Below are positions 16,156-34,906 of a DNA stretch of 53,558 nucleotides, in pieces. Source of the stretch: a virus. Its lineage: Duplodnaviria; Caudoviricetes. The stretch's first letter is position 1. Each line of letters opens with the position of its first letter. The notes under the pieces were generated by a model. The model ran no database searches and was not told the origin of the DNA. It saw only the letters and a list, made by a program, of their open reading frames with translations. Where the stretch lies: positions 1-53,558 of IMG/VR virus record IMGVR_UViG_3300033562_000211; one strand, given 5' to 3'. The position numbers and the translations under genes are program-made.

Positions 16156-17772
16156 TTAATAATTACCTAATACCTTTGTGTTCATAATAGCATGCCACTT
16201 AATCGTTGTAGATGCCAACCCTGTTACTTTTATAAGTATCGTAGATCCACCAGTTACAGTAATAGATATACCTGTCAATCCAGAAGATATTAAATCAGTG
16301 CCTATTGTAGTAGTTGACAATAAACCTCCTGAAGAGTTTACAACTCTGCGATTAAACACAGCGTACTCAACGGCTGGATATTGCTTAACTGCATATATTG
16401 ATATATCGTTTATATATATCTGTTGACCATTGTTCTGATTGATTGTTTCTGCTGTAGTAGTTGGAGACATATTTGTTTGTGTAGCATTAGTTGTTACTAT
16501 ACCAAGCATCAATTCTCTTGTTCCCCAATATAAGGCAGCTGCTCCACTTGCATTACCATTCCACCCTACAGAATGCTCACCGGTATTTAGTGTTAACCAA
16601 TTATAACCATAAAGTCTTGAATATGGCTTTGTAGCATTTAATGTTTTACCAAAGATTATGGAATAATTACTTGATGCTGACAGTGTGTTTGATTCGCCAA
16701 TTACTATAGCACTATTACTACCTACTGTATTACTATAACCGCTTACTAAAGAATATGATCCATTACATGTATTATAATATCCAGAGACAAGATTATGTGT
16801 CCAACTATTTGTATTCCCTTCACCAAATGCAGCTGAATAATTACCTGAAACAACATTATCTTTACAGGCAACAAAAGAACATATACCGCTTGCAGTATTA
16901 TTTTGTCCAACCGCAAATGAATAACTACCACTTGAAACCATTGTATTAGCAGTTCTACTCATCTGTAAATCAACTGCCTTTAATCCTCGTTTATTACCAC
17001 CAGTAGCAGTATTATCAGGTATTTGTGCTAAAATAGAACCAGTTCCTTTAGCAACTATAGCAAAATCTACATTGGTAGCAGCATTGGTAGCAGTTAAACT
17101 AACTACAGGAACAGTACCGTTAGGAGCACTCGTATTAACAGCTTCAGTAAAGTTAGTCAATCCAGAAACATCTTGCCAACTTGGTAACCCACTAACTAAT
17201 TTCAAATACTTACCATCAGTACTCTTAGCTAATGTAGTTGCTGCACCACTTGTTCCACCATAAATAATATCTCCACTTGCTGACATTGGATTAGTTAGCT
17301 TACCATTGAATATATTCCAGTCCGTAGAACTTAAATAACCATCAGAATCGGTATCTGCTGCACCTAATGTATTCTTAATAGTAGTAACAGTCTCATCTCC
17401 AGTATTAGTTCCACTAACAGCATTCAATGCAGTTATGTTACTATGAATATCTGTAGAGTAAGTACCAGCCGCTTGTTTTCCACCTAATGCTGTATCTATA
17501 CCAGCTAAATGAGCTTCAACATCTGGAGTTGCTGCAACATAGTTAGTTGAAATACCAGTAACATTGATAATATTAGCATTGTGCCCTGATGTAGCTGTAT
17601 CAGTTAACCCAGCATGTAGAGTAGTACCAGGATCACCAGTATCACCCTTATCACCCTTATCACCCTCATCACCCTTATCACCTTTATCACCTTTTAAGGC
17701 AACAAGATCCTTAGCAAGACTGCTCTCAGTCATTATACCATTAGTATCTCTATATAATAATTTATCTGCCAT
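16156..17772 (-). CDS. Tail fibre / receptor-binding protein
   Basis: Collagen-like (GDK)n; MSASGDIIYG fibre motif; ~14-aa YadA-head-like beta-roll repeats (SFAVGQNNTASG, SAAFGEGNT, SLVSGYSNT). Confidence 0.85.
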   Translation of the reverse strand: MADKLLYRDTNGIMTESSLAKDLVALKGDKGDKGDEGDKGDKGDTGDPGTTLHAGLTDTATSGHNANIINVTGISTNYVAATPDVEAHLAGIDTALGGKQAAGTYSTDIHSNITALNAVSGTNTGDETVTTIKNTLGAADTDSDGYLSSTDWNIFNGKLTNPMSASGDIIYGGTSGAATTLAKSTDGKYLKLVSGLPSWQDVSGLTNFTEAVNTSAPNGTVPVVSLTATNAATNVDFAIVAKGTGSILAQIPDNTATGGNKRGLKAVDLQMSRTANTMVSSGSYSFAVGQNNTASGICSFVACKDNVVSGNYSAAFGEGNTNSWTHNLVSGYYNTCNGSYSLVSGYSNTVGSNSAIVIGESNTLSASSNYSIIFGKTLNATKPYSRLYGYNWLTLNTGEHSVGWNGNASGAAALYWGTRELMLGIVTTNATQTNMSPTTTAETINQNNGQQIYINDISIYAVKQYPAVEYAVFNRRVVNSSGGLLSTTTIGTDLISSGLTGISITVTGGSTILIKVTGLASTTIKWHAIMNTKVLGNY

Positions 17773-20415: not shown

Positions 20416-20692
20416 TGTTCATGATCTCCCATTTAAAAGATTCATTCTTACATTTAAACTCTATTTCTATAATATCTTTATCCATTATACACATACATTC
20501 ATACTCATACCATATTTCCTTGATTTCATCCACATTTTCATAGGTATTAGGAGTAATTCTCTTCTTTTTCTTACCATAAAATGTAGCTCCAGATGATACG
20601 ATAGACCATTTTTCATCATCAAGCTCACATTGAACAGTAACCTTGAACGTACCATTAGCTAAATCATAAGGAAAGTAGTATCGAATATTCAT
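20390..20692 (-). CDS. Hypothetical protein
   Basis: First ORF after the leftward promoter. Confidence 0.5.
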   Translation of the reverse strand: MNIRYYFPYDLANGTFKVTVQCELDDEKWSIVSSGATFYGKKKKRITPNTYENVDEIKEIWYEYECMCIMDKDIIEIEFKCKNESFKWEIMNNGSNYKRM

Positions 20693-20741
20693 TTGTGAGC
20701 CTTATGGATAGATTTTTAAGAAATAAAAAACTTATAATGGT

Positions 20742-20770
20742 ATGTTACTCAAGATAAGACCCAATGTCAA
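20742..20770 (-). promoter_or_regulatory. Sigma70-like leftward promoter
   Basis: TTGACA-17 nt-TAACAT on the - strand, upstream of the whole left arm. Confidence 0.6.
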
Positions 20771-21147
20771 GAGATTTATTTCCAGATTTTAGCTTAGAAT
20801 AGGGCTACTTCTTACCGAATTACTGTAAATTTTTAGAAAATTTTTATAATTTGATTCATTTTTCTTTTCTGATTTATTCTTTTCTCTTATATAGGATCAA
20901 TATAGAGCTAATGATAAGTAATATTATAAGAATTATAGTTTTTATGGGTTATATAAGGAAATATCTAAAAATAGTAGAAAATTGTACGCTGTGTCAATAT
21001 TACTCAAAGAGACCCATACCAAACGGTATTTGAGTTGATTCATTTATCAGTAGATAAAAGAATGCTTATTTGTGGAGAGTTAGACTGTGGGGTAATGTTA
21101 ATGGTGACATTGTCCTAATTATTTAATCAATATGTCTGGAGGACATT

Positions 21148-21303
21148 ATGGATAAGTATGAAGAGATTATTTACAGACCAAAGAGAACAGTTAAAGATGT
21201 ATTGGAAACAACTGTTTTGTTTATTATTGCATCTGTTGGATTTGGATGTTCATTTGGGTTAATAGCTTATGCTATTAAGTTGTATGTTATGATACATCAG
21301 TGA
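21148..21303 (+). CDS. 51-aa membrane peptide
   Basis: GGAGG RBS; MDKYEEIIYRPKR...VLFIIASVGFGCSFGLIAYAIKLYVMIHQ. Confidence 0.5.
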   Translation: MDKYEEIIYRPKRTVKDVLETTVLFIIASVGFGCSFGLIAYAIKLYVMIHQ

Positions 21304-21503
21304 TGTATTCTTATAGGTATATAGGGCTTTAATTAGCCTTATATACTTATATTTATTTCTTTTTTATTTATGTTTATATATACTTAACCAGGACTCCCGT
21401 ATTTAACGATATACCGTGGGGTAGTAGTAGTGAGTCTATGAGTCTGGTAGATAATGGTGTCTATGCTATGCTATCCTAAATTAATCTCTTGAAAGGAGAT
21501 TAT

Positions 21504-21785
21504 ATGAATTTTGATATGATTATCAAGAGCTTCGGGAAGCTGCTGCTTCAAACCGAAGCTCTAAGGGTATTAGCTTCTGGTAATACAGAAGCGTATCCCC
21601 TAATATTGTTATCGCTAATGGCGATGATAGCAGAGGATATGGGTAAGACCATACCCGAAGTCTGCACAATGCTGGTAGATTTTGCTGCTTCCTGGGAGGA
21701 AGTATCAGCAAAGTTCACCAATATTGCTATGTCTGGTAAAATGATGGAGGCGATGATCAAGATGATCACTGCTACCCTCAAATAG
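21504..21785 (+). CDS. Hypothetical helical protein, GC-richer than the flanks
   Basis: AAGGAG RBS before ATG 21504; followed by a terminator. Confidence 0.6.
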   Translation: MNFDMIIKSFGKLLLQTEALRVLASGNTEAYPLILLSLMAMIAEDMGKTIPEVCTMLVDFAASWEEVSAKFTNIAMSGKMMEAMIKMITATLK

Positions 21786-21796
21786 CCATCATGTTT

Positions 21797-21823
21797 AAAG
21801 GGAGTATAATAGCTCCCTTTTTT
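21797..21823 (+). terminator. Intrinsic terminator
   Basis: AAAGGGAG-tataatag-CTCCCTTTTTTT. Confidence 0.75.
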
Positions 21824-22029
21824 CCTTATTTTTTCCCCTATTAGGTAGAGAGAACGAATTTAGATCCCATAATTAAACCTTGATTCTCATTAAATACTAC
21901 AATTAAACACCATAAACGGTATTTTATGAGTCCTGGTTAAATATCACAGACTGTGGGGTTTCTTTGGGGTAAAGAAAGGAAGGAAAGAAACTCTAAAGAG
22001 TATATAAAAAGGTTATTATTAAAATATAA

Positions 22030-23200
22030 TGATCTTCTTATGTATTTTACAAAGATGTAACTGTCGTCGTATGGATAGTTACACACCTGAGAACAGGTAA
22101 ACACAAAGAAGTCCAGAGTGATTAACTGGATGAGCAGTATACGATGCAACACAATATCCTTATTGTGCTATCTACGTTAAAAGATAGATGATCTCCTTGA
22201 ATAAGAGACATTTGTAGCCTAATAGTAATATAAGGCAAAATGGAATTAACGATTCCAACACTGGAGAGCCAGTGAGATTGGCTTGACAACCATGTATAGC
22301 ATGTATCCTTAGTAGGGCTCTACAACTATATAAAGAGGTCAAAAACAATTAAGCTCATTACTCTAACATGAGCAGTTATAGGTTATCTATAAACCTAATG
22401 CATGTAACTGTTATTCATAACATGCAATCATCTAATCTCAATTGAGATGTGACAATTAGATGAAACAAAGAATATGAGCATATAACTTGATTGCCGTGAA
22501 AGCTTAATCAGAGCTTAGCGATCAACTATATCAACTCTATACTGTCTAGTTAAGACATAAACTAACTCATGTAAGCTATGTAAAGCTAGTGTCACTACTC
22601 TCTAGTAAAGAGATATACACAACTCAAAGATTACATATAAGAACTCACGTTCAGAGTAATAAAAACTCTGAAGGATAGTTGTGAGACGTATGTATATTGG
22701 GAAAAGAAAAGTAGCGTTGTGTCAAGTATGCAGCCGTTGAAAGAGGCGACATACAAGGAGATAACAATCCGTAAATTGTAAAATCGAAGAAGAGAAACAC
22801 TCTAAGGAGTGTGTATCTAATCAGGGTTTAATAGACAACTAGACAGCACACTAAAGCTGTGGTTGCATAAAATCCAATACTAAGCAATGAGGAGTCTGAG
22901 GACTTATGTCAAACTCATGATAGCTTTGAGGATATAATTCTATATAGGTTCATCACCTACTGAATGTTACTGAAGTATCATCTTTTAACATAGAGGATCC
23001 TTAAAAAGGCTCTCCTCATACTTGCAAGTATGTTAAACTGATATGAATGTCTGAGAGTAAACTCAGTAAACAAATCATTGGTTGTTAGTTATCCAATAGA
23101 TGAAAAACTAACTAGGAAGGTCACTCCGAATATCAACAGTTGTTGACTGATGAATTGCAAAGTGCTATTGAATCAATGCAAGATTCAGGTGATCAAATCT
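22030..23200 (+). ncRNA. Candidate large structured non-coding RNA (~1.15 kb)
   Basis: No + strand ORF of 60 aa or more. More than 20 back-to-back hairpins with A-rich loops, G-U pairs on the + strand, and long-range complementarities. Confidence 0.65.
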
Positions 23201-23213
23201 CTTAATCTTCCAA

Positions 23214-24137
23214 ATGAAGGAGGTACTAATGGAAGACATGAGAGCATCATACAAAGATGCCAAATCTAAAATATATTTTCACAAAAGTGATTGTGATAAT
23301 GTATGTAAATTTGTTATCGAAGATGATGCATTCATGAAAATTAAGAGATTTGGAGAACACAAGCAGAAGAAACTAAGGTCTCTTCTTCCTGAATATGGTG
23401 AAAAATTCATATTCGTTTGTTATGATGAAATCATTATCAGTAAAGTGGCAACACTTACTAAGTATGGATGGATTCAGAATGAACAGATGAATTTCACCAA
23501 AGAAGGAAGAACGCTTAAGTTCAACAAAGCCTGTAAAAAAGAAAATATTGATATAACTGAAAGAGACAATCTATCATACGGTGATTCCGTATATAGAATG
23601 TTCTTCTCACTTCGGTTAGAAGATATGATCTTATCTGGAACAGGCTCTGCTCGCTCTTGTTATCAACCTACAGGTGCATATTTCCAAGGTAATATTACAT
23701 ATTACACATCTGGATATGCTATATTAGTAGGTTTGAAAAGCAGAAGCGGTGAACTTATAGCAAGATCTTGGATCCAGTTCTCTAAAAGTCTCAATTCCTT
23801 AGGTCACACATGTGGCTATGGAAATGAGACATATAACACTAACCTTCTCAGGAAGAAACTGCGTAACTTTGTGCAGTCTTTCATGAATAAAGGAAAGTGG
23901 ATCTCATCAGAGATGATAAGTACCCGTATAAAGGGAAAATTCATTAAAGATGGAAAGAGAACTGGACATTCGACGTGGTCGTGTGGAGGCTATTACAATG
24001 ATCTTTATCATAAGACAAGTGTTTGTACATTTGCTTATGTAAAAGGAATTGCAAAGCCTAGCGAGTTCTGTTTTAAGCATGGAGTTAACTTTAGCTTAAA
24101 AACAGGAAAGCTCACAGACTGTGGAAGGATATGCTAG
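23214..24137 (+). CDS. Hypothetical early protein; start probably ATG 23229
   Basis: AGGAGG RBS; SCY...G.Y...IARSW pattern. Confidence 0.6.
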   Translation: MKEVLMEDMRASYKDAKSKIYFHKSDCDNVCKFVIEDDAFMKIKRFGEHKQKKLRSLLPEYGEKFIFVCYDEIIISKVATLTKYGWIQNEQMNFTKEGRTLKFNKACKKENIDITERDNLSYGDSVYRMFFSLRLEDMILSGTGSARSCYQPTGAYFQGNITYYTSGYAILVGLKSRSGELIARSWIQFSKSLNSLGHTCGYGNETYNTNLLRKKLRNFVQSFMNKGKWISSEMISTRIKGKFIKDGKRTGHSTWSCGGYYNDLYHKTSVCTFAYVKGIAKPSEFCFKHGVNFSLKTGKLTDCGRIC

Positions 24138-24209
24138 TGTTTCCCAACACCAGGGAGAGGCATATAAAGATGGAGAAGCCTCTCCTGTGGTCTCCATTAA
24201 GGAGTAATT

Positions 24210-24971
24210 ATGGTAGATATTAAAAAAATACTGACCATGAGTGAAATAGAACTACAGAAATTAATAATAAGAACAGCTAAAAAAGCTGGTCTATTAATAA
24301 TAAACTGTAGTGAATATATCATTTGTTATTCCAATGAAACAAGATTAACGCTCTGTTCGCATTGGGATACAGTGCTAGACATACCAAAAAGAATAACAGA
24401 AGTCAATGATTTCATATTCTCAGGTATTGGTCTTGGTGCTGATGATAAAGCAGGTGTTTATATCATGCTGTCGCTCATGGAACAAATGCCAGAATCATTT
24501 CATTTCGCATTCTTCAATCATGAAGAAACAGGAATGATTGGTTCATCTATGTTTACTAAGCTACATAAAGAGCTACCGTTCAACACGGGAGGCTTTATTG
24601 GTCTTGATAGACATGGAGACAAACAGTTCGTTACCTATGGACAAGGAAATAAAAAACTTGAGAAAAAATTAGGTAACGAATACAAGAAAGAAACAGGTTC
24701 ATGTTCAGACTGTAAGAAACTATCTAAAGAGTACAGTCTAGCTATGGTCAATATCTCTGTTGGATTCTATAATGAACATACGACAGAAGAATATTTAGAT
24801 CTAATAGCTATGAACAGAACACTGAATCTGGTAAGAGATAAGTTAGCTGATTGCTCAGTTACTTATATGATAACAGAAAAAGAAGCGTTTGACTACAATA
24901 AATGGAGATCATCATACAAATACAATGATGATAGTAATTTGAACGAATATTATAATAATTTCGGAGGATAA
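24210..24971 (+). CDS. M28/M20-like zinc peptidase
   Basis: SHWDTV, LGADDKAG, EETG, LDR, YNEH metal-ligand motifs. Confidence 0.85.
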   Translation: MVDIKKILTMSEIELQKLIIRTAKKAGLLIINCSEYIICYSNETRLTLCSHWDTVLDIPKRITEVNDFIFSGIGLGADDKAGVYIMLSLMEQMPESFHFAFFNHEETGMIGSSMFTKLHKELPFNTGGFIGLDRHGDKQFVTYGQGNKKLEKKLGNEYKKETGSCSDCKKLSKEYSLAMVNISVGFYNEHTTEEYLDLIAMNRTLNLVRDKLADCSVTYMITEKEAFDYNKWRSSYKYNDDSNLNEYYNNFGG

Positions 24972-24972
24972 C

Positions 24973-25335
24973 ATGTTAGATTTAAGACTTAAGCTAAAAC
25001 AAAAAAACTTAAAGTCCGTTGAGTTTTACTTAACTGAAGAACCTTCAGTTAGTGATATTGTCGATTTAGACGATATTGAAATTGAAGAAGACTCGCTGGA
25101 AACACAGGTCATTGATTTAGAAGTTTCAGCTATGGCTGCTGGGCTTTTACATCACATAAGCCATGCAACAGGTAATGATTCACGCTCTAATTGTGGCAAT
25201 GTCCAATCTAATGGAGATGAATTCTGGCAATGGGTAGGAAAAGGACATTCATTCGTATTTAGAGCCTATTACATAAGTCAGAAAGGAACAAAGGTAATAA
25301 TACCTAGTTCCATTTCATATGTTCAAAATCTATAA
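24973..25335 (+). CDS. Hypothetical protein
   Basis: GGAGG RBS; acidic N-terminal half. Confidence 0.55.
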   Translation: MLDLRLKLKQKNLKSVEFYLTEEPSVSDIVDLDDIEIEEDSLETQVIDLEVSAMAAGLLHHISHATGNDSRSNCGNVQSNGDEFWQWVGKGHSFVFRAYYISQKGTKVIIPSSISYVQNL

Positions 25336-25439
25336 TTAAGAACCGAAACAAGAGCTGTATATGATCCAGATTATGACCATTGTGTGTCTTCGGCTCTCAT
25401 ATATAGCTCTTCCATAGGTTCTATTTGAAAGAAGGTATT

Positions 25440-25760
25440 ATGTTAAGGTTGATGAACAGTGCTATGATGCCAGATGAAGGTACTTATAAGTGCCATCGTA
25501 TAGGTAAAGTGGCATTTATAAACATGTTGAACTCCACTGAATTTGAATCATATATTGGGTACGAAAGTACTGCAAACATGATTAAACAAATGGGTTGTTT
25601 TAAAAAAATAAATATTTCAAGAGAACAAACCATCGTACAGGATGGAGATGTTCTTCTTATTATTAAATTGAAATATAGGGTTGGCAACCCTAACGACAAG
25701 AGACACTTGGAGCCATCAGAAGATGACTTTGAGTTCTTCGTTATTCAGTACAACACCTGA
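25440..25760 (+). CDS. DUF1874 (STIV B116 / AcrIII-1 ring nuclease)-like protein
   Basis: LMNSAMM...FESYIGYESTANMI...NISRE...GD.LLIIKLKYRV matches the family pattern LLN...F.SAIGH..TA...NR...GD...L..R. Confidence 0.65.
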   Translation: MLRLMNSAMMPDEGTYKCHRIGKVAFINMLNSTEFESYIGYESTANMIKQMGCFKKINISREQTIVQDGDVLLIIKLKYRVGNPNDKRHLEPSEDDFEFFVIQYNT

Positions 25761-26110
25761 CTACAATGGAATGAGAAAAAGGAAGATAAACCAAACATAT
25801 ATCAGGATTTGTTAAACTCTGAATTTATTTTAGGAAGTGTATGTATAACATAGAGCATATGAATTTTATAGTATTGTATTGTAGATTAATGGGTAAATAT
25901 GTTCCCCGACATATCGAACCTTACAATCACGACAATGCATACCATGCTCCTACGGTTAAGACAAGGAGGATATACCCTGCATCAACAGGGGAGACCTGAC
26001 ATAGGAGATTAATTGATTTATTTATATTATATAACTTATAAAGCACAATAGCCTGAGCATGCTATAACAACTACTCATTTAAATAATGGATTTTTTGTTA
26101 AATAAAGTAA

Positions 26111-26177
26111 CTCCCATAAAGAGTTAGGCTCACACAGTCAATGGATGAGTTACGTTCAAATCGTAATATGGGAGCAA
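26111..26177 (+). tRNA. tRNA-like element (pseudo-tRNA lacking a D arm)
   Basis: 8-bp acceptor CTCCCATA/TATGGGAG and perfect T arm TTACG-TTCAAAT-CGTAA. No D arm, no canonical anticodon loop, ends in CAA. Confidence 0.5.
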
Positions 26178-26271
26178 TTTAGAGATACTCTCTTGTAATC
26201 GTAGGTGTGACACCATTAACACTTTGGTTACAAGAGGGATTATCTCACGTATAATTAAATAAGGGGCAACT

Positions 26272-26472
26272 ATGATAATTGATATAAGGGGTACATTATA
26301 TAGTTATCATAAGCCTAGGTTATCAACTATATTGTATCTTCAGACTAAAAAGAAATACAATAAAACTAAAATAAATAAAATTGAAACTAACGAGTGGTTA
26401 TCTTACCATAAGTCTAACAATGGTATAGAAAACTATTCCAATTTCACAATTATAGGAGGTCACCGTGTTTAA
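26272..26472 (+). CDS. Hypothetical protein
   Basis: AAGGGG RBS. Confidence 0.45.
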   Translation: MIIDIRGTLYSYHKPRLSTILYLQTKKKYNKTKINKIETNEWLSYHKSNNGIENYSNFTIIGGHRV

Positions 26473-26637
26473 AATTAAAAAACAAACTAAAACAAGAGCT
26501 TTAGATATACTTGGTTATTCAACCAATTATCAACAAGCTCTAGCATTGGTTAATGAAGTAGAAGAAGAACACCAGGAACTTATGTTCTCTTCTAAGACAT
26601 ACCAAAACGAGTTCAATAAAACTATGAGGAGAACAGA

Positions 26638-26853
26638 ATGAAAACAGTGTTGCAGGTAAGAGCCACTTATCAAGGCTCTTACCTTAATGTAGATATGTTA
26701 ATACTTAATTTAATTAAAATAGGAAAACTAACGAACGAAGCTGGGAAACAATTTTTGAATCTAAGTCTAAGATGTATAGATAAAACATCTGAAGACTTTG
26801 AAGATTTAATTAATGAATTAAATAAAATAACGAGAGGAGAACGGATTGAATAA
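26638..26853 (+). CDS. Hypothetical protein
   Basis: GAGGAG RBS. Confidence 0.5.
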   Translation: MKTVLQVRATYQGSYLNVDMLILNLIKIGKLTNEAGKQFLNLSLRCIDKTSEDFEDLINELNKITRGERIE

Positions 26854-27025
26854 CGAAACAAAGCATGTAACTGTATCATGGATATGGAAGACTCTCCTTA
26901 TCCTGATAATTATGTTTGCTATTTATGGTGTTGGCTCACTATTAAAGCAATCGTATAACCAACCAAGTATTAAGATTGTAACAGATTCAATTTATGTTAC
27001 AATAGATTCGAGTAAGGAAAAATAA
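26846..27025 (+). CDS. 59-aa single-TM protein
   Basis: TTG start with GAGGAG RBS; WIWKTLLILIIMFAIYGVG. Confidence 0.4.
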   Translation: MNNETKHVTVSWIWKTLLILIIMFAIYGVGSLLKQSYNQPSIKIVTDSIYVTIDSSKEK

Positions 27026-27105
27026 ATTGTTAAAAAAAGGATTGGAAAGATAACTAAAATGATTTATCTTTTTAGTCCAAATCTTAATTAACGAAAGGAA
27101 TTACG

Positions 27106-27630
27106 ATGAGACTAAAAATTGTAATTGGTGAAAACACGCTAAACGGTATCACTACTGACTCATTAGAGTCAATGGAACCTATGTTAGTATCTATTGGTAA
27201 AACTAATGAAATGGTAGCAACAGTTACAGAAATATTTCAAGAAACTATTATTGAATGGGATGATGATGAAGACGATGAGGCAGAAAGAACAGTAACCTCA
27301 ACAAGAAGAATCTCAGTAGCAGACATGCAAGCTAATGGAGATTATTCAGTAGTCTTTGCCGTACCTCCTCCTCCAAAACCAATTAAGTTCTGTAAACTTG
27401 TAGGTGAACAAGCAGAAGTTGAGTTTGCAACCGAACCAGGGATGACAGTCAATACAGCTATTGAAAAAGCCATGGACTTATTAGGCTTCTCAATGGATTT
27501 ATCACAAGTGACAGTTGTTGTTGATGCAGACAATCAAACAATGCAATATCCAGAATCTATTAGAAATGAACCGATAAGAGAAGGTTCAATCATTTCGATT
27601 TTAGCAATAGGTAAACCATCAAGGGGTTAA
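27106..27630 (+). CDS. Ubiquitin-like (beta-grasp) modifier protein
   Basis: C-terminal domain VEFATEPGMTVNTAIE...VTVVVD...PIREGSIISIL ends in KPSRG-stop; first gene of the E2/JAB/E1 cluster. Confidence 0.7.
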   Translation: MRLKIVIGENTLNGITTDSLESMEPMLVSIGKTNEMVATVTEIFQETIIEWDDDEDDEAERTVTSTRRISVADMQANGDYSVVFAVPPPPKPIKFCKLVGEQAEVEFATEPGMTVNTAIEKAMDLLGFSMDLSQVTVVVDADNQTMQYPESIRNEPIREGSIISILAIGKPSRG

Positions 27631-27634
27631 TCTT

Positions 27635-28708
27635 ATGGCTATTTCTAACAGAGTAAAGCCTTCGTTTGTAATAACAACAGATGAAGGATTGCTAAAATCA
27701 TCACCATACCAAATGGTAATATCAGGTCAACAATGTATTCCAGAATTGGAATTACAGAAATCAATACCTGAGTTATCTATGTCAAACAAGTTAGAAAGAA
27801 TCAAGAGATATATAGTAGATGAAGCAGTAGAAATATCTGGAGTTATTAAAAAGAAAATAACAATAATTCCAGCTAATTATACATTCAATATAGATTCTCT
27901 TGATAAAACAATAATAAGAAATGTTCTCTATTATTCACTAGATTATCCAAATGTTTGGTTTAATGTGCAAAAAGAAAATGCCATTACAATGAGACAAGCT
28001 ATAAATATATATATAAATTCAAATGTATATAAAACTATCTATGGTTGTAATCTAGCTGGATTGAAAGACAAGATATTCCTTAAATCATATGATGAATATC
28101 TTGAAGAAGAAGAAGAGAAAAATAAAGCGGTTATATTGGAGCTAATCAATGCAAACAATAAGAAATTAGAGAATCGAATTGCAAATGCATATTCTCAAAT
28201 TAAAAGTAATGAAGATTCTACGTTAGTTCATTTCAAGAATATATATGATTGGAAAAAGTTAATAGAAACTAAAAGAGAAACATTAGACTTACCTAAAGGT
28301 GTAAGAATACAAAGTGAAAACCTAGTGATGAATACGAATGATATAATTGTATCATTTGCAAGTAAACGGATATACTTTGGTAAATTTGAAGTAACCTATA
28401 AGGTATCTGAGAGACAAATATTCATAAGAAATACAGAATTTAAAACACATAATGTTTGTCATCCTCACATATCATCTTATATATGTTGGGGAGGATTCAA
28501 AGAGAAGATTACTACAGCAATAGAGGATAATGATTTTAATAAAATGTTTGCTATTGTAATGGTATTCTTATCAGAACACTCAGATATATCAACATTTGTA
28601 AAAGCGTTGCTATTTCCTCATATAGATGAGAATGGTAAACTAACTAACTTAGCTAATACTAAATTCCATGATGGAAAGAGAGCAGAAGATTATGATTTCA
28701 ATAGATAG
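27635..28708 (+). CDS. Prokaryotic E2-like conjugating enzyme with N-terminal coiled coil
   Basis: CHPHISSYICWG corresponds to the E2 HP[NH]...IC active-site motif; followed by helices. Confidence 0.7.
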   Translation: MAISNRVKPSFVITTDEGLLKSSPYQMVISGQQCIPELELQKSIPELSMSNKLERIKRYIVDEAVEISGVIKKKITIIPANYTFNIDSLDKTIIRNVLYYSLDYPNVWFNVQKENAITMRQAINIYINSNVYKTIYGCNLAGLKDKIFLKSYDEYLEEEEEKNKAVILELINANNKKLENRIANAYSQIKSNEDSTLVHFKNIYDWKKLIETKRETLDLPKGVRIQSENLVMNTNDIIVSFASKRIYFGKFEVTYKVSERQIFIRNTEFKTHNVCHPHISSYICWGGFKEKITTAIEDNDFNKMFAIVMVFLSEHSDISTFVKALLFPHIDENGKLTNLANTKFHDGKRAEDYDFNR

Positions 28709-29282
28709 AACATGCTATGAGAAAATGCGTATTCTATGCGAGTATTCCAAGATTGAAGTATGTGGCACTGCATTATATAAGAGTGATCTTATTTATGGAT
28801 TCTCTCTTACAGAATATGTAGGCGCTCATAACATAGGTAATGATCGTTGGGATTTAGCAACAGGAGTACATGTAGTATCTGATGTTCTTCTCTTAGCAAA
28901 AAAACAACAAGAAGCTAGAAAGCAACAAGCAGTACTGGTAGATTGGCATTCACACAACTCTATGGCTGCATTCTGGAGTGGAACAGATGAAAATAACATT
29001 AGAACATTCCCTAATGAATATCAACTAATATCAATAGTTACTAATCATAAGGGAGATATCTTATTAAGGAAAGATACTTCATACTTTACTGGAATAGAGA
29101 CAAGACATTATAAAGAGTTTGCTCTTACAGGTAAAGGTATGGGTGAAAAGAAACGGTTAGATTATCTTAAAGAGATAGAGAAATACTATTCTAAAAGAAA
29201 GGAGTTCATGCAACAATGGACAAAACAAGACAAAAGGATCTCCTCAGAGAAGAAGAATGCTCAAGACCTATATCTATTATAG
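28668..29282 (+). CDS. JAB/MPN+ metallo-isopeptidase
   Basis: N-terminal E (IEVCG) and HSH-x7-S-x2-D in DWHSHNSMAAFWSGTD. Confidence 0.88.
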   Translation: MMEREQKIMISIDRTCYEKMRILCEYSKIEVCGTALYKSDLIYGFSLTEYVGAHNIGNDRWDLATGVHVVSDVLLLAKKQQEARKQQAVLVDWHSHNSMAAFWSGTDENNIRTFPNEYQLISIVTNHKGDILLRKDTSYFTGIETRHYKEFALTGKGMGEKKRLDYLKEIEKYYSKRKEFMQQWTKQDKRISSEKKNAQDLYLL

Positions 29283-29854
29283 GTGTTGGAGGAATTGGTT
29301 CGCCTGTTGCTCTTTGTTTAGCAAAGATGGGATTTGATAACATCACTGTTTATGACTTTGATACTATTGAACCACACAATATACCTAATCAATTCCATTA
29401 TCCTCATAATATGGGAAGACCTAAAGTTGATTCTATGTGTGAATTAGTAGAAGACTTAACAAACTCTACTCTTCATACAAAGAATACTAAACTGACACTA
29501 GACTCTCCTGACTTATATGGTATTGTAATCTGTGCAATAGACAATATGCCAGAGAGAAAAGTAATCCTTAACCTATGTGACATGGCTGAACTATTCATTG
29601 ATGCAAGAATGTCAGCAGAAAAGTACTCAGTTACAACAATCAATCCTCGTCTTAGTCAAGACATAGATTTCTTCAATGAAGGATACTATGAAGAGGGAGA
29701 TCAAGAACCATGTACTGCTAGAGCAATTATGTATTGTCCAATGGCAATAGCAGGAGACATAGGTTCAATAGTCAAAAGACACATAATGAGTCAGAAGTAT
29801 CCACGGTTTATGTATCGTGATTTACTTGCTGATAAACAAATAATAAGATACTAG
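29216..29854 (+). CDS. E1/ThiF-family adenylyltransferase
   Basis: RQ, IIGVGGIGS, DFDTIEPHNIPNQ, PKV, AIDN, DARM, candidate catalytic Cys in EPCTA. Confidence 0.92.
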   Translation: MDKTRQKDLLREEECSRPISIIGVGGIGSPVALCLAKMGFDNITVYDFDTIEPHNIPNQFHYPHNMGRPKVDSMCELVEDLTNSTLHTKNTKLTLDSPDLYGIVICAIDNMPERKVILNLCDMAELFIDARMSAEKYSVTTINPRLSQDIDFFNEGYYEEGDQEPCTARAIMYCPMAIAGDIGSIVKRHIMSQKYPRFMYRDLLADKQIIRY

Positions 29855-29866
29855 AAAGGAACTACT

Positions 29867-30340
29867 ATGCCAACACCTGCTAAAGAAATCATTACAGAAC
29901 AAGTCGGAGAACTAACTGTAGAACTACTACCAGAGACTGAGTACAAAAGAACTGAAGAAGGAGTACTAATCCTTAAAGATGGTAAACCACAGAAGTTAAT
30001 CACACGTGATGTCTATTGGACAAACGAAAGACTAGAAGAGACAACCCCAAAGGAATACGTTACCAGAGAGTTGATCAATTCACTCACAACTTACAAGGCA
30101 AACAAGCTCCGCATTGGGCTCATTCAAGGCGTTTTAAAGTTTATCAATGATTCCATGCCAAACAATGCAAAACCTCACAAATGCCCTGTTTGTAAACAAA
30201 CTGAGCTGATTAAAATTGAACTTGATGGAGACCGGTACAAAATCTATTGCTCCAATCCAGCTCACGCTTCACTTCAGATGCAACTTCAGGGAGTTGGAAA
30301 CGAAGAAGAGGCAATCAAGAACTGGAACATAGTCATGTAG
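29867..30340 (+). CDS. Protein with a C-terminal Lar-like zinc finger
   Basis: KCPVCK...YKIYCSNPAH...EEEAIKNWN. Confidence 0.55.
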   Translation: MPTPAKEIITEQVGELTVELLPETEYKRTEEGVLILKDGKPQKLITRDVYWTNERLEETTPKEYVTRELINSLTTYKANKLRIGLIQGVLKFINDSMPNNAKPHKCPVCKQTELIKIELDGDRYKIYCSNPAHASLQMQLQGVGNEEEAIKNWNIVM

Positions 30341-30368
30341 TCACTTTTGAGACAATCCCTTACCATTC

Positions 30369-30417
30369 TATCATGGTGAGGGAGAATCTCAATTAAACGC
30401 AAGTTTGACAGCAAATT
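30369..30417 (+). repeat. Dispersed gapped motif, weak copy
   Basis: TATCATG, TAAACG at offset +25 and GCAAATT at +42, the same offsets as the strong copies. Confidence 0.45.
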
Positions 30418-30429
30418 TAGAGGTCGAAA

Positions 30430-31293
30430 ATGAATGTCGATAAAATTTCCAGACTAATGAATATAAGGAAACTCTTTGTCCTATTATACACACGAGCAGG
30501 ATTTGGAAAAACTACATCCTTATTAAACTTAGAATGGGAAAGAGTACTATATATAACAACAGAATCTGGATTCAGAGTTTTACAAGGTATGTTAGTTCTC
30601 ATAGAGAAACTTTATGATGAAGCTATACTCACATCTAAAGAAGAGACTCTGGCTAAATTCAAATCAGAAAGACCAGACATGTCTGATCAGTTATTGGAGA
30701 CCTATAATACAGCATTAACACATAGGTTAAGTAAACCTAAAGACTATCTATTAGAGATAGACCACATTAGTGTTGACTGTCAACAGGATCTCTTCTCAAA
30801 GACTATATGGGATGCTTATAATGAAAAAGCAATGTTCCATGGTATAGACATGTCAAAGAAAGATATCATAGTAGTCGATACAATCACATACTATTCAGAT
30901 ATTGTAGTAAAGGAAAGACAGATAGCAAATGCAAACAATAATAACAAATTTGCAACATGGGCAGAACATGCTACAGCTATTAAAACCTTACTAGACAATC
31001 TAGTAGTATTAAGAGGTATTAAAGTAGTAATTGGTCATGAAGGTTACGATAAAGACTTAAAGAAGAGAACATTAGCTCTTCAAGGTGATGCTGTTAAGAC
31101 AGATATCTCAGGTAGATTTAACGTAGTCCTATATGGCACAGAACTAAAAGATGAAGATACAAACAAGACAACTCGTGTCTTTATAACTAATCCAGACATC
31201 ATCCAAGAAAAGGTTGATGCTAAATCACAGGATCCAAGACTTAGTGAAATTGAAGATATGGATCTAGCTAAAATATTATATAAACTCTCATAA
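30430..31293 (+). CDS. AAA_24 / Sak4-like ATPase (recombinase)
   Basis: LYTRAGFGKTT Walker A, IIVVDTIT Walker B, VIGHE. Confidence 0.8.
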   Translation: MNVDKISRLMNIRKLFVLLYTRAGFGKTTSLLNLEWERVLYITTESGFRVLQGMLVLIEKLYDEAILTSKEETLAKFKSERPDMSDQLLETYNTALTHRLSKPKDYLLEIDHISVDCQQDLFSKTIWDAYNEKAMFHGIDMSKKDIIVVDTITYYSDIVVKERQIANANNNNKFATWAEHATAIKTLLDNLVVLRGIKVVIGHEGYDKDLKKRTLALQGDAVKTDISGRFNVVLYGTELKDEDTNKTTRVFITNPDIIQEKVDAKSQDPRLSEIEDMDLAKILYKLS

Positions 31294-31302
31294 GGAGAAA
31301 TT

Positions 31303-31788
31303 ATGCCTTCAGTTTACGTACCTAAATACTATTTTCCAATTACTCTAGTTGGATACATTGTTGAATCATCTAAAGACGGTAAATATAGCTTTGAAAAGCT
31401 ACTTTATACCACAGTAAAGAAAGATGGAACAGTATCCAAAGACTGTAAATTAACAATCACAGATGGAAACCGTGCTTGTCTAAAAGGAATTGAAATCTCA
31501 TTAACACCAATCCTGGGAGCAATCTCTACATGGGAAGCTCGTATTGGTACAAGATTCTCTATTCAATGTAAAGCTATGCTTATGGCAAGTAAACTTGATC
31601 CAGAAGGAATGCGTGAATTAGCTCTTCATGCAACTAAACCTACAATTCTGTTAGCTGATACTCCAGATGTAGCTTGGACAGAAGCAGAAGTTGAAGCAAT
31701 TAGACCAGTAGGTAGAAAGCCTTCAGAAAAAGGAGCGGCTCCAGATGCATCAGCTCCACCAGTAGTAAACAATTCAAGTGACTACTAG
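31303..31788 (+). CDS. Hypothetical protein, possible ssDNA-binding protein
   Basis: Follows the Sak4-like gene; flexible C-terminal tail; called on position. Confidence 0.35.
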   Translation: MPSVYVPKYYFPITLVGYIVESSKDGKYSFEKLLYTTVKKDGTVSKDCKLTITDGNRACLKGIEISLTPILGAISTWEARIGTRFSIQCKAMLMASKLDPEGMRELALHATKPTILLADTPDVAWTEAEVEAIRPVGRKPSEKGAAPDASAPPVVNNSSDY

Positions 31789-31801
31789 ATAATTCTCGTA
31801 T

Positions 31802-31829
31802 AAGGAGTACTTAGGTACTCCTTCTTTTT
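31802..31829 (+). terminator. Intrinsic terminator
   Basis: AAGGAGTAC-ttag-GTACTCCTT-CTTTTT. Confidence 0.7.
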
Positions 31830-31848
31830 ATTTAAATAAGGAGAAGAT

Positions 31849-33822
31849 ATGAGAATATTCTCACCTAATCTATATGATCGTTCTATTAAAACTATAGAAG
31901 AAATAGCTCACTATTTATATTCAGGAGATAAACCTTTAACAGGACATATCTCTATTGGAGCATATACAGATGAGTTAATACAATATTCAGCTTCTAATGG
32001 TAATTCAGTAGCTCAATATAATGGGGTTATGAATGGAACAATCATACCAATAGACTTTGATCTAAGAATAGATAAGCTAGAAGAAGAAGCAGTTAAAGTA
32101 AATTGTCTCTCTGGTGATCTATTACCAAGATACTTGGATCAATCAATGTTAATTCTACAACCTATACTTGAAGAATGGGATACATTAGGAATAGAATATT
32201 ATTACTTCTTCTCAGGTAATAAAGGATTTACAATATATCTCTCATCTGCTCATTTAATGAACAAAGAAATATATGAAGAAAGATTTGATTTATTATGTAA
32301 ATCTACAATAGACTTATTAAGAAGTAAGTATCCTACATTAAACAATAATTATTTTTTAATAGATACTCAACCATATAACAGAGTAGGAATGCTAAGAGCA
32401 CCCTTCACTGAACATGAGAAGTCTAAAAAGAATAAGTATATGTTAATACCTAAAGTTCCTAAGACTCACGGTCTAATGTCATCTTATAATCAAGTAGGTA
32501 AAGTATGGCAAGAGTCTAAGAAGATATATCCTCAAATACTTAAACAAATCTTTTCAGAGAAACAACCATCTTCTATAATACTAGGTGTGTTGCAAGACGT
32601 AAGAGCAACAACAGTTACACAAGAGATTAAAGTTTACACTAAACCATACTTAATGGAACATTGTATATGGACTATGTGGAAAAATTCTCTCTCATCTTCA
32701 CAAGGAAGAGAAGTAACGGGAATGCGTATTGCATCATGGGCTAGTAAAAGAGGGTTGACACCAGCTATGGCTATGCAACAACTACAAGAATGGAATCAAG
32801 GACTATCAGGTAAAGGATCATTAGGCAAGCCTGAACTTGATAACATAATGAAGAAGTATGGTAAGTATAGCTATAATTTCTGTAAAGATGATTTATCATT
32901 AGAATTCTGTTGTAAATCTAAAGAATGTCAATATTGGCAAGCAGCAGAAGGAACTAAAGATATAGAATCTACGGAAAACAATATAAAGCTATTAGACCAA
33001 TTTGATCATGCAGACAAATCAGATGCAATACAATGGAACTCTATATTCCCTGGATTAAGAGGTATATTCTATCCTCAATTTGGTCATATAGGAACTATAG
33101 GTGCTGCATCAGGAGTAGGCAAAACAGAAGCCCTCTTAACTCTCATGTTAGAGAACTCTCATGTATATTGGATATTCTGGTCTTATGAACAACCAATAAT
33201 AGAGTTAATGGGTAGAGCAAGAGATATTCTTGGGCTTAATGGAGTAAACAATTGGATGGAGATACTCCATGAAAAGACTAAGCATATATTCTTTATTCGT
33301 AATGGATCTATATGTTTACAAGATCAAATGATAATAAAGAGAAATTTAGAACAAATACACAATATTCGTATCAAAGCTATGGGATCAGATTACATGGGTA
33401 TTATACCAGTACGTAATCTTGATACGGGAAAGATAATGAATAATGAAGAAAACTCTATTCCAGCAGCAGCTAAGATTATAAAAGATGAAGCATTCAGAGA
33501 GCAAGTATGTCACTTTGTTACAGTACAACCTACAAAGGAATACTCAGCTCATGGAGCTCTACTCTTAGAACCAGAACATATAAAATATGGTCAAAGTATC
33601 CAGAGTATGTCTGATGGACAGGTAACACTATCCAGACCAAACATATTAAAAGATAATGATTGTATGTGTGCTTTTGAAACTAAGTCTAGAGGTGCTAAAT
33701 CTAGATCAATATCTGTTGTAGAACTAAAAGATAATCATATAATTATGCCAATACTTTACACTAAGCCATTCAAGCTATTCAGAACAATAGAAGAGTGGAA
33801 CAAAGCATTAAAGGCGTTATAA
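31849..33822 (+). CDS. Primase-helicase (AEP/PrimPol, PriCT and SF4-like helicase)
   Basis: PIDFD, FSGNKGF, LRAPFTEHEKS; Cys cluster; GAASGVGKT; SYEQ; DYMG. Confidence 0.8.
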   Translation: MRIFSPNLYDRSIKTIEEIAHYLYSGDKPLTGHISIGAYTDELIQYSASNGNSVAQYNGVMNGTIIPIDFDLRIDKLEEEAVKVNCLSGDLLPRYLDQSMLILQPILEEWDTLGIEYYYFFSGNKGFTIYLSSAHLMNKEIYEERFDLLCKSTIDLLRSKYPTLNNNYFLIDTQPYNRVGMLRAPFTEHEKSKKNKYMLIPKVPKTHGLMSSYNQVGKVWQESKKIYPQILKQIFSEKQPSSIILGVLQDVRATTVTQEIKVYTKPYLMEHCIWTMWKNSLSSSQGREVTGMRIASWASKRGLTPAMAMQQLQEWNQGLSGKGSLGKPELDNIMKKYGKYSYNFCKDDLSLEFCCKSKECQYWQAAEGTKDIESTENNIKLLDQFDHADKSDAIQWNSIFPGLRGIFYPQFGHIGTIGAASGVGKTEALLTLMLENSHVYWIFWSYEQPIIELMGRARDILGLNGVNNWMEILHEKTKHIFFIRNGSICLQDQMIIKRNLEQIHNIRIKAMGSDYMGIIPVRNLDTGKIMNNEENSIPAAAKIIKDEAFREQVCHFVTVQPTKEYSAHGALLLEPEHIKYGQSIQSMSDGQVTLSRPNILKDNDCMCAFETKSRGAKSRSISVVELKDNHIIMPILYTKPFKLFRTIEEWNKALKAL

Positions 33823-34507: not shown

Positions 34508-34545
34508 TCAAAACTCAAAGCCATGCGGGGCAATTTGAAAACTTT

Positions 34546-34604
34546 ATGGAGTATTTATCATGAACTAATCAAATGCCCTCAAAATGGCTAAAAAGGGGCA
34601 AATT
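34546..34604 (+). repeat. Dispersed gapped motif, copy 2, within a phased A-tract region
   Basis: ATGGAGTATTTATCATGA-N17-AAAATGGCT-N8-GCAAATT. Confidence 0.8.
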
Positions 34605-34852: not shown

Positions 34853-34881
34853 TTGACAAACATAAAAAAATATTGTATCTT
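34853..34881 (+). promoter_or_regulatory. Sigma70-like promoter
   Basis: TTGACA-17 nt-TATCTT, upstream of AGGAG RBS and ATG 34907. Confidence 0.7.
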
Positions 34882-34906
34882 TCATTAAATTAACCAGGAG
34901 TGAAAA

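What the first reader, a model, noticed from the sequence alone, without database searches (positions are those of the whole stretch)
22030..23200. Candidate giant (~1.15 kb) structured non-coding RNA ahead of the early genes
An otherwise gene-dense genome leaves about 1.4 kb without genes, and it is tiled with hairpins. Examples: TGTAACTGTC/GATAGTTACA (22056-83, G-U on +), ACCTG-AGAA-CAGGT (22085-98), CACAATA/TATTGTG (22150-67), CACTGG-AGAG-CCAGTG (22259-74), TTCAGAGT/ACTCTGAA (22650-72, nested inside CTCAC/GTGAG and TACATA/TATGTA), ACACTC-TAAG-GAGTGT (22797-812), CATACT/AGTATG (23017-32), CTGAG/CTCAG (23051-66). Long-range complements also occur: CTGTCTAGTT 22542-51 with AACTAGACAG 22837-46, and CTCAAAG 22623-29 with CTTTGAG 22924-30. 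The stems share no sequence, so this is not a repeat array. A TATAAT lies at 22025-30 and a terminator insulates it upstream. It resembles the large phage-associated RNAs GOLLD and ROOL in style but is longer; I cannot assign it to a family.
Basis: partly seen in the sequence, partly recalled or inferred. Interest (0 to 1): 0.82.

Follow-up and report, generated by a model that had tools for sequence, protein, structure and literature searches.

The report
Hairpin-rich untranslated stretch before phage early genes
A 1.4 kb gene-free, hairpin-dense stretch really does sit ahead of the early genes of an unknown phage, but the neighbouring protein-coding genes are just as hairpin-dense, so it looks more like a long structured leader of the early transcript than a single giant RNA machine.

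Summary
The sequence-level observation holds. Window 21786-23228 has no coding capacity. All quoted hairpins lie at the stated coordinates. Short hairpins are about 3.4 times commoner than in shuffles (43 vs 12.7), and 22030-23000 folds with z -5.7.

Three results undercut the "giant GOLLD/ROOL-like RNA" reading.
- The excess structure is not specific to the gap. The adjacent coding stretch 23300-24270 gives z -9.3. A gradient of excess folding runs from about 21.2 to 28.4 kb.
- The quoted long-range complements occur at chance frequency.
- No Rfam family matches, even at E<=10. No + strand terminator closes the unit before 31802. The proposed TATAAT lies in a 50-nt hairpin that a ~93% identical relative lacks.

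Covariation and expression could not be tested. The phage is an orphan, no full-length relative could be fetched, and no RNA run was listed.

My best reading (0.45) is an untranslated, locally structured leader of the rightward early transcript, inside a larger hairpin-rich early domain. A discrete large ncRNA, comparable to phage K lnc002, remains possible (~0.12).

The parts
21786..23228 (+). Non-coding gap between the stop of the 93-aa ORF and the likely start (ATG 23229) of the first long early gene. This is the finding itself.
   Evidence: Stops in all frames. No ORF with positive coding score except marginal short ones. No period-3 signal. Hairpins about 3.4 times shuffles. z -5.68.
21797..21820 (+). 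Intrinsic terminator (9-bp stem plus T run) that ends the preceding small-gene unit.
   Evidence: scan. Local fold -12.6 kcal/mol.
21948..21959 (+). Third copy of the motif AGACTGTGGGGT (consensus ACYGTGGGGT). The other copies are at 21082-21093 and 21411-21422. Each lies ahead of a rightward unit, so it is a candidate early promoter or operator element for the unit that contains the gap.
   Evidence: three exact matches, all on +, all within 870 nt, none elsewhere in 53.5 kb without a mismatch. The role is inferred.
21997..22049 (+). It is dispensable in a relative.
   Evidence: Local fold -17.6 kcal/mol. Run X3 replaces 22001-22050 with 3 letters (tables 5 and 5c).
22056..22098 (+). Two adjacent hairpins: TGTAACTGTC/GATAGTTACA, and ACCTG-AGAA-CAGGT.
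   Evidence: The one X3 difference shown here (22091) falls in the loop.
22150..22274 (+). Run of hairpins at 22150-22167, 22168-22187, 22241-22257 and 22259-22274.
22632..22694 (+). Nested hairpin: TTCAGAGT/ACTCTGAA inside CTCAC/GTGAG inside TACATA/TATGTA.
   Evidence: (I1). Of the five X3 differences shown here, one lies in the loop, one turns A-U into G-U on +, and three lie in internal-loop or weakly paired positions. No compensatory pair is seen.
22797..22812 (.). Hairpin ACACTC-TAAG-GAGTGT. Read on the - strand it is followed by a T-rich tail and scores as terminator-like.
23017..23032 (+). Hairpin CATACT-TGCA-AGTATG.
23229..24137 (+). First long early gene (302 aa, orphan), preceded by the Shine-Dalgarno sequence GAAGGAGG. 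It is itself hairpin-dense.
   Evidence: One search finds only itself in 5.8 billion proteins. 23300-24270 gives z -9.28.
21241..28440 (+). Hairpin-rich early domain, coding and non-coding, of which the gap is one part.
   Evidence: Excess fold energy per 120 nt is -8.11+-1.63, -6.41+-1.02 and -3.94+-1.00 in three successive 2.4-kb bins, then -0.8, against -0.89+-0.26 in the structural genes. The + strand folds better than the - strand against paired shuffles in 58 of 89 windows, p 6e-5.
21504..21785 (+). 93-aa orphan ORF just upstream. It is the most structured segment of the whole window.
   Evidence: 21470-21830 gives z -8.28 with 100 shuffles. Codon score +17.2. Orphan.

Best explanation
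The gap is the untranslated, locally structured front part (a long 5' leader, perhaps processed) of the rightward early transcription unit of an uncultured, deeply divergent tailed phage.

Proposed sequence of events: transcription starts after the terminator at 21797-21820, possibly near the third ACYGTGGGGT motif at 21948. It then crosses about 1.2-1.4 kb without translation and continues into the gene at 23229 and its followers.

The many short, unrelated hairpins act one by one. Candidate roles are protecting an untranslated, C-poor RNA from Rho and RNases, or serving as processing or stability sites. They are not parts of one large tertiary fold. The gap shares this property with the first ~5 kb of coding sequence behind it and the two small genes before it.

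Shown: no coding capacity; local hairpin excess; the same excess in the flanking genes, with a gradient; no + strand terminator before 31802; long-range pairing at chance.

Inferred: that the stretch is transcribed on the + strand; where transcription starts; what the hairpins do.
For: - Non-coding.
- Hairpin excess is local: 43 vs 12.7. Summed local excess accounts for the global one: about -6.8 kcal/mol per 120 nt in 10 windows, against a global difference of -54.6.
- The same excess appears in the adjacent genes. Per 100 nt: gap -4.82, early genes -4.58. 971-nt folds: gap z -5.68, coding 23300-24270 z -9.28, later gene z -2.56, structural gene z +0.72.
- A gradient runs along the rightward module.
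- The domain 21241-28440 folds better as + RNA than as - RNA against paired shuffles: 58 of 89 windows, p 6e-5. The control 28441-35640 gives 42 of 89, p 0.58. The gap alone goes the same way, 11 of 16 windows.
- No + strand terminator-like site lies between 21820 and 31802.
- A/G-rich skew matches the + sense genes: AT skew 0.148, GC skew 0.079.
- GC is 33-36%, not the 26-28% of the promoter-type spacer.
- The X3 relative keeps 22051-22693 at 46 differences plus 6 gaps in 643 nt. That is within the range of its coding pieces, 11/427 to 45/301.
Against: - No transcript data: no RNA run was listed, so neither transcription nor its direction is shown.
- In the gap alone the strand asymmetry is not significant: p 0.11 and p 0.13. 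In the early genes 23229-25760 it is absent, 15 vs 16 windows. Raw fold energies of the two strands of the gap are nearly equal, -1014 vs -994.
- No convincing sigma-70-type promoter was found at the proposed start. The role of the ACYGTGGGGT motif is a guess.
- A 1.4-kb leader is unusually long, and I cannot say why the phage keeps it.
- Equal hairpin density in coding and non-coding DNA would also fit a regional mutational or DNA-level cause.
Confidence: 0.45

Rival explanations
1. One reading: a discrete, large (about 1.15-1.4 kb) structured non-coding RNA with a function of its own. It would be comparable in kind to the RNA-seq-detected long ncRNAs of Staphylococcus phage K, or to GOLLD/ROOL.
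For: - z -5.68. Hairpin excess. No coding capacity. GC not depressed. About 93% identity in a relative.
- Precedent: phage K lnc002 is a 1154-nt intergenic RNA (passages of PMC9241854). Its DNA folds with z -7.20 and also has no Rfam family.
Against: - The structure signal is no stronger than in the neighbouring coding genes.
- Long-range complements are at chance.
- No Rfam hit, even at E<=10.
- 0 of 10 tetraloops are GNRA or UNCG.
- No 3' terminator on +.
- The proposed promoter hairpin is absent in the relative.
- The six differences shown for the relative include no compensatory pair.
Confidence: 0.12
2. A functionless spacer. The hairpins are a by-product of a regional process that acts on coding and non-coding DNA alike, either mutational (such as template switching at quasi-palindromes) or a uniform regional constraint. 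The gap itself does nothing.
For: - Hairpin excess in the gap equals that in the coding neighbours and decays smoothly with distance.
- Stop frequency is close to what base composition would predict (the expectation is my own rough arithmetic, not a computed result), with no residual periodicity.
- A whole hairpin module is deleted in the relative.
- No conserved motif or repeat.
Against: - Phage genomes rarely keep 1.4 kb of useless DNA (general knowledge).
- The relative's piece over the gap, at 92.8% identity, is among its better-conserved pieces: 29 of its 54 laid pieces are under 90%.
- GC is not lowered as in the neighbouring true spacer.
- The domain-wide preference for the + strand points to RNA-level selection rather than a DNA-level by-product.
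Confidence: 0.2
3. A DNA-level element: an origin of replication, or another site where single-stranded DNA hairpins matter, placed at the junction of the two divergent gene modules.
For: - It lies next to the switch of GC skew and gene orientation at about 20.7 kb.
- It sits immediately upstream of the replication/recombination module: Sak4-like annealing protein, helicase, exonuclease.
- The hairpins are mostly Watson-Crick, and the two strands of the gap fold about equally.
Against: - No iterons or over-represented k-mers: the top 8-mer occurs 3 times against a shuffle mean maximum of 2.98.
- No DnaA-box-like site inside the gap with one mismatch or fewer.
- No AT-rich unwinding stretch; the AT-rich part is 20600-21199, outside the gap.
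- The hairpin excess extends 5 kb into genes.
- The skew switch is confounded with gene orientation.
Confidence: 0.12
4. A cluster of several independent small RNAs, or antisense or - strand transcripts, rather than one unit.
For: - The hairpins are modular and unrelated.
- Two - strand terminator-like hairpins with T-rich tails lie at 22812->22797 and near 22003->21990. The latter rests on repeat D2 and my own reading of the sequence.
- One module can be lost.
Against: No promoter/terminator pairs delimit units on either strand beyond chance: 22 promoter-like sites against 21.5 expected. No Rfam sRNA hit.
Confidence: 0.08

Closest known systems
Long non-coding RNAs of Staphylococcus phage K (lnc001, lnc002), found by stranded RNA-seq (PMC9241854; I read passages only, not the supplements)
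   Same: A gene-free intergenic stretch of nearly the same size in a lytic phage: lnc002 is 37679-38832, 1154 nt. It folds far better than shuffles (z -7.20), has no Rfam family, and its function is unknown.
   Different: Phage K's RNA is shown to be transcribed and lies beside tRNA genes. Here there is no expression evidence, no tRNA and no sequence similarity to any phage record. The structure signal also continues into the coding genes.
GOLLD, ROOL and OLE large ornate RNAs (Rfam families; cryo-EM paper PMC12286853, of which I saw only the search listing and the start of the abstract)
   Same: Large, non-coding and structured. GOLLD and ROOL are often phage- or prophage-borne (recalled).
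   Different: No match to any of the 4227 Rfam models at the gathering score or at E<=10. No support for long-range helices. No GNRA tetraloops. No covariation evidence available.
Long structured 5' leaders and processed early polycistronic transcripts of phages, such as T7 early mRNA with RNase III hairpins and lambda nut/HK022 put leaders (recalled, not tested here)
   Same: Position directly ahead of the early genes and after a terminator. Local hairpins. No terminator of its own.
   Different: It is much longer than known leaders. It has no recognisable nut- or put-like element, and the hairpin density extends through several kb of coding sequence.

Membership tests
GOLLD / ROOL / OLE / HEARO / raiA / group I and II introns (Rfam 15) | Match to the family covariance model at or above its gathering score | tested here: not met
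   cmscan of the whole window gave 0 matches at the gathering score. On 20600-23400 at E<=10 there were only two chance-level hits, mir-883 and snoR79, at E 2.6 and 3.8.
Large ornate structured RNA (generic) | Long-range helices that organise the molecule, beyond chance | tested here: not met
   Perfect complements of 7, 8, 9 and 10 nt more than 100 nt apart are at shuffle level: 33, 95, 64 and 92 of 300 shuffles reach the observed count.
Large ornate structured RNA (generic) | Covariation that supports the helices across homologues | not testable with these tools
   No relative could be fetched. Only 6 differences of one relative inside the gap were displayed, and none is compensatory.
Large ornate structured RNA (generic) | Structure signal specific to the RNA gene relative to its flanks | tested here: not met
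   The flanking coding stretch gives z -9.28 against -5.68 for the gap. Per-window excess is equal.
Discrete transcription unit | Own promoter and own terminator | tested here: inconclusive
   No + strand terminator-like site between 21820 and 31802. TATAAT at 22025 has no -35 partner and is absent in the relative. The scans cover only sigma-70-type promoters and intrinsic terminators.
Protein-coding region (including recoded stops or decayed genes) | An open frame under some stop reassignment, codon bias, 3-base periodicity | tested here: not met
   All three stop codons occur in all six frames. Codon scores are negative. Period-3 power is below shuffles.
Replication origin | Iterons, DnaA boxes, AT-rich unwinding element | tested here: not met
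   No enriched k-mers and no DnaA-like box in the gap. GC is 33-36% throughout.
Repeat arrays (CRISPR, tandem repeats, ToxI-like) | Repeated units | tested here: not met
   Only tandem-repeat rows with 2.1-2.2 copies of 9-13 nt units. No direct-repeat family beyond two- or three-copy short matches.

The most novel reading that the evidence does not exclude
The phage devotes about 7 kb at the start of its rightward module to RNA that is saturated with short, sequence-unrelated hairpins. This includes 1.4 kb that encodes nothing. It would be an 'armoured' early transcript, or a new phage long ncRNA of the phage K lnc002 kind, whose dense local structure shields it from host RNases, Rho or RNA-targeting defences, or soaks up a host RNA-binding factor. 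Such domain-wide structure spanning genes and a giant leader has, to my knowledge, not been described for a tailed phage. That is recalled knowledge plus two literature searches that did not turn it up; I read none of the papers listed.
Probability: 0.18. Interest if true: 0.65.

Novelty: new variant of a known kind. Interest (0 to 1): 0.38.

Why it matters
If the stretch is a real functional RNA, it adds to the very small set of kilobase-sized non-coding RNAs in phages, none of which has a known function.

The more general point is methodological. In this genome a strongly negative folding z-score does not mark an RNA gene, because the neighbouring early protein genes score even better. Scans that flag "structured gaps" therefore need the flanks as a control.

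The hairpin-saturated early domain is an oddity that could be tested for a role in early-mRNA survival.

Tried and rejected
Relatives for covariation:
- blastn of the gap against 50,697 phage records: no match.
- Neighbour proteins (307 aa, 98 aa) and TerL against IMG/VR: none.
- The 307-aa protein against JGI metagenome contigs: none.
- A hairpin-shaped DNA pattern against IMG/VR and metagenome contigs: none.
- A two-motif pattern against IMG/VR: none.
- The 307-aa and 93-aa proteins are orphans. The two other hits are repeat proteins that I judge spurious.
- The M28 peptidase has only homologues of 28-36% identity.
- TerL has 36-44% relatives. A profile scan gave 80 loci. I examined the gene content of only the best record (G001, 34.5 kb); it shares only terminase and portal genes with the window, so it says nothing about the junction. 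The peptidase query found nothing in the 5 best records. The other 76 loci were not examined.

Expression: no RNA holder was listed among the public runs. This is no evidence either way.

Laying contigs:
- Only 6 of the relative's differences inside the gap were displayed (466 rows hidden). That is too few for a covariation test.
- The X1 joint 19021->22657 (side 21) was disregarded as unreliable.
- X2 had no cover over most of the gap, which I do not interpret.

Strand from mismatch types in stems: counts too small (gap G:T 2, A:C 0).

Shared promoter motif among 20 intergenic segments: none convincing.

Giant proteins of the window and of G001 against PHROGs, looking for a virion RNA polymerase that might use hairpin promoters: nothing. 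The N4-type hairpin-promoter idea was dropped for lack of any support.

Closed or unavailable:
- The look-up of encoding contigs was announced closed and was not called.
- Supplements of PMC9241854 (promoter tables, Fig. S2) were not available. They may bear on how lnc002 is delimited.
Full report
**Context**

The window is a complete IMG/VR virus record of 53,558 bases, estimated 59% complete. Public runs that hold it are labelled microbial mat, and a partial relative is labelled lake water. GC is about 26-37%.

Genes on the - strand from 1 to 20692 include a P22-like portal and a large terminase. Genes on the + strand from 23229 to about 46088 include an M28 peptidase, a Sak4-like annealing protein, a helicase and an exonuclease.

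The terminase is only about 25% identical to any deposited phage and at most 44% identical to any metagenomic protein. The phage is therefore a deep orphan.

The finding sits at the divergent junction of the two modules.

**The observation**

The stretch is non-coding by several tests.
- The six frames of 21790-23213 carry 43, 34, 43, 30, 35 and 34 stops per 474 codons, with TAA, TAG and TGA in every frame. No stop reassignment opens a frame.
- The longest ORF is 71 aa on the - strand, with a codon-usage score of -16.1.
- Period-3 power is 0.32, against 0.75+-0.41 in shuffles and a median of 3.73 for windows of that size.

On a codon-usage ORF map it is the largest gene-free stretch, at 1153 nt. 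The next are 536, 511 and 455 nt.

The genome is gene-dense but not perfectly so. Twenty intergenic segments of 60 nt or more lie in the + module.

Perfect hairpins with loops of 3-10 nt in 22030-23200:
- Stems of 5 bp or more: 43 against 12.7+-4.3, with 0 of 300 shuffles reaching that.
- Stems of 6 bp or more: 13 against 3.6+-2.3, again 0 of 300.

A 971-nt fold gives z -5.68 on + and -5.81 on -.

There are no tandem repeats of note, no iterons and no second copy elsewhere in the window. The upstream terminator (21797-21820) and the TATAAT (22025-22030) exist.

The two long-range complements also exist, but such matches are expected by chance. For 10-mers the count is 2 against 1.15+-1.36, and 92 of 300 shuffles have as many.

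**The structure signal is regional, not a property of the gap**

I compared each 120-nt window with 12 dinucleotide shuffles over the whole record, on both strands. The excess folding energy, in kcal/mol per window on + / -, was:

| Region | Excess (+ / -) | Windows |
|---|---|---|
| Structural genes | -0.70 / -0.89 | 172 |
| AT-rich spacer 20693-21147 | -0.43 / +0.84 | 3 |
| Two small genes, 21148-21830 | -15.95 / -13.42 | 4 |
| The gap | -6.35 / -4.70 | 11 |
| First early genes, 23214-25760 | -6.78 / -4.75 | 20 |
| 25761-30000 | -2.75 / -2.04 | 35 |
| 30000-38000 | -2.05 / -2.29 | 66 |
| 38000-46088 | -1.23 / -1.37 | 67 |

In 2.4-kb bins the + strand values are -8.11+-1.63, -6.41+-1.02, -3.94+-1.00 and -0.77+-0.58, and then between -0.2 and -2.8.

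A repeat with 100-nt windows and 25 paired shuffles gave -4.82 for the gap (26 windows) and -4.58 for the early genes (49 windows).

The fold tool agrees (971 nt, 20 shuffles each):
- Coding 23300-24270: z -9.28.
- Later gene 32000-32970: z -2.56.
- Structural gene 16200-17170, on its sense strand: z +0.72.

A local-fold scan lists 68 non-overlapping hairpins of -7 kcal/mol or better between 21100 and 26000, spread over genes and gap alike.

The most structured piece of the record is not in the gap at all. It is the 93-aa ORF at 21504-21785, with z -8.28 over 21470-21830 (100 shuffles).

But the criterion has no discriminating power here.

**Which strand, and RNA or DNA?**

The raw energies of the two strands of the gap are nearly equal, -1014 vs -994 summed over 52 windows.

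Against paired shuffles, the whole domain 21241-28440 folds better as + strand RNA: 58 of 89 windows, mean difference -1.52, Wilcoxon p 6e-5. The control stretch 28441-35640 shows nothing: 42 of 89, p 0.58.

This signal is carried mainly by 25761-28440 (27 of 32 windows). The gap goes the same way but not significantly (11 of 16, p 0.13). The early genes 23229-25760 show no asymmetry (15 vs 16).

Mismatch types in stems were too few to use.

I take this as moderate evidence that the domain's structure is selected in + strand RNA. For the gap itself it is only suggestive.

**Unit boundaries**

No + strand intrinsic-terminator-like site lies between 21820 and 31802. A + transcript that starts in or before the gap should therefore run into the early genes.

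The proposed TATAAT has no acceptable -35 in the scan. It lies inside an AT-rich hairpin (21997-22049, -17.6 kcal/mol).

A motif ACYGTGGGGT occurs exactly three times, all on +, at 21084, 21413 and 21950. Each copy lies ahead of a rightward unit:
- the small ORF 21148-21303 with its terminator at 21312-21351;
- the ORF 21504-21785 with its terminator at 21797-21820;
- the gap plus the gene at 23229.

Its role as a promoter or operator element is my inference.

**Evidence from a relative**

Contigs of run X3 carry a relative.

| X3 piece | Differences / length |
|---|---|
| Gap, 22051-22693 | 46 + 6 gaps / 643 |
| Coding | 16/276 |
| Coding | 30/484 |
| Coding | 38/269 |
| Coding | 11/427 |
| 20601-20922 (gene end plus left spacer) | 27/322 |
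| Coding | 14/265 |
| Coding | 45/301 |

Of its 54 laid pieces, 29 are under 90% identical. The gap is therefore conserved about as well as the genes.

The relative replaces 22001-22050, almost exactly the hairpin that contains the TATAAT, with three letters. That module and that promoter candidate are dispensable.

Only six differences inside the gap were displayed.
- Two fall in hairpin loops (22091, 22661).
- One turns A-U into G-U on + (22633).
- Three lie in internal-loop or weakly paired positions (22640, 22674, 22679).
- None is compensatory.

This is too little for a covariation verdict.

**Comparison with known RNAs**

Rfam 15 gives no match at the gathering score for the whole window. 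At E<=10 on 20600-23400 there are only two chance-level hits. Membership in GOLLD, ROOL, OLE, HEARO or the intron families therefore fails.

None of the 10 tetraloops in the gap is GNRA or UNCG.

The nearest precedent I found is phage K. Passages of PMC9241854 report lnc002, a 1154-nt intergenic RNA. I fetched that stretch. It folds with z -7.20 and likewise has no Rfam family.

Kilobase-sized phage ncRNAs without a family do exist. The window's gap could be one, but there is no sequence similarity and no expression evidence.

**Other readings tested**

An origin of replication is not favoured.
- There are no iterons or enriched k-mers, and no DnaA-like box in the gap.
- GC is flat at 33-36%, while the AT-rich part (26.5-27.8%) is the separate spacer at 20600-21199.
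- The GC-skew switch at about 20.7 kb coincides with the switch of gene orientation.

A decayed gene is not favoured: stop density is close to what base composition would predict (my rough arithmetic), and there is no periodicity.

A functionless spacer remains possible, because the hairpin density equals that of the coding neighbours. Conservation, GC content and the domain-wide + strand preference argue against it.

**Verdict**

The feature is real and unusual: 1.4 kb of conserved, hairpin-dense, non-coding DNA.

The evidence fits a long, locally structured, untranslated part of the early rightward transcript, embedded in a roughly 7-kb hairpin-rich early domain (confidence 0.45). It fits this better than a single giant ornate RNA (0.12), a functionless spacer (0.20), a DNA-level element (0.12) or a cluster of small RNAs (0.08).

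Covariation and transcription are the decisive tests, and neither could be run with the data reachable here.

Noticed in passing
window 21504-21785 (fold tested on 21470-21830): This 93-aa orphan ORF has a good Shine-Dalgarno sequence and a positive codon score. It is also the most structured segment of the record: about seven consecutive GC-rich hairpins, z -8.28, and GC about 40% against about 32% overall. In the likely source sample a second contig variant differs at 24 of 147 positions (21540-21686). It may be a gene with extreme mRNA structure, or a structured RNA that happens to be open.
   Followed up: partly
window 21082-21093, 21411-21422, 21948-21959: The motif A[GT]AC[TC]GTGGGGT occurs three times, only here and only on the + strand. 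Each copy precedes a rightward unit. A companion AAACGGTATTT lies at 21021 and 21914. It is a candidate early promoter or operator element of unknown type.
   Followed up: partly
window 21380-21396 and 21928-21944: A 17-nt inverted repeat (16 of 17 complementary) brackets the 93-aa ORF and its terminator, 531 nt apart. It is the best inverted repeat of the region. It could be a long-range RNA pairing or a recombination or inversion site.
   Followed up: no
window 23229-25760: The protein-coding early genes (a 302-aa orphan, an M28 peptidase and two small ORFs) fold far better than shuffles (z -9.28 for 23300-24270). That is unusual for coding sequence and is unexplained.
   Followed up: partly
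window 25620-26468: In the likely source run, one contig joins 25620 to 26468 with 40 other letters in between. Part of the population therefore lacks about 848 nt, including the 511-nt gene-free stretch 25761-26271. This is an indel polymorphism or a small mobile insert.
   Followed up: no
window 28668-29282 and 29216-29854: Adjacent, overlapping genes carry a JAB-type deubiquitinase-like domain (E 2.5e-5, 24.5 bits, just under the Pfam cut-off of 25) and a ThiF/E1-like domain (E 1.3e-20). This is a ubiquitin-like conjugation pair in a phage, reminiscent (recalled) of the Cap2/Cap3-type or Bil-type modules of bacterial defence.
   Followed up: no
window 40646-41404 and 43386-44144: A ThyX-type thymidylate synthase domain and a radical SAM domain lie in the + module.
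   Followed up: no
G001 (L083/L084), contig positions 20673-29540: The closest IMG/VR relative by terminase (41% identity) encodes a 2955-aa protein, followed by a 1020-aa protein. Neither has a PHROG match. The window's right end has a 1012-aa ORF preceded by an ORF that runs off the record.
   Followed up: partly
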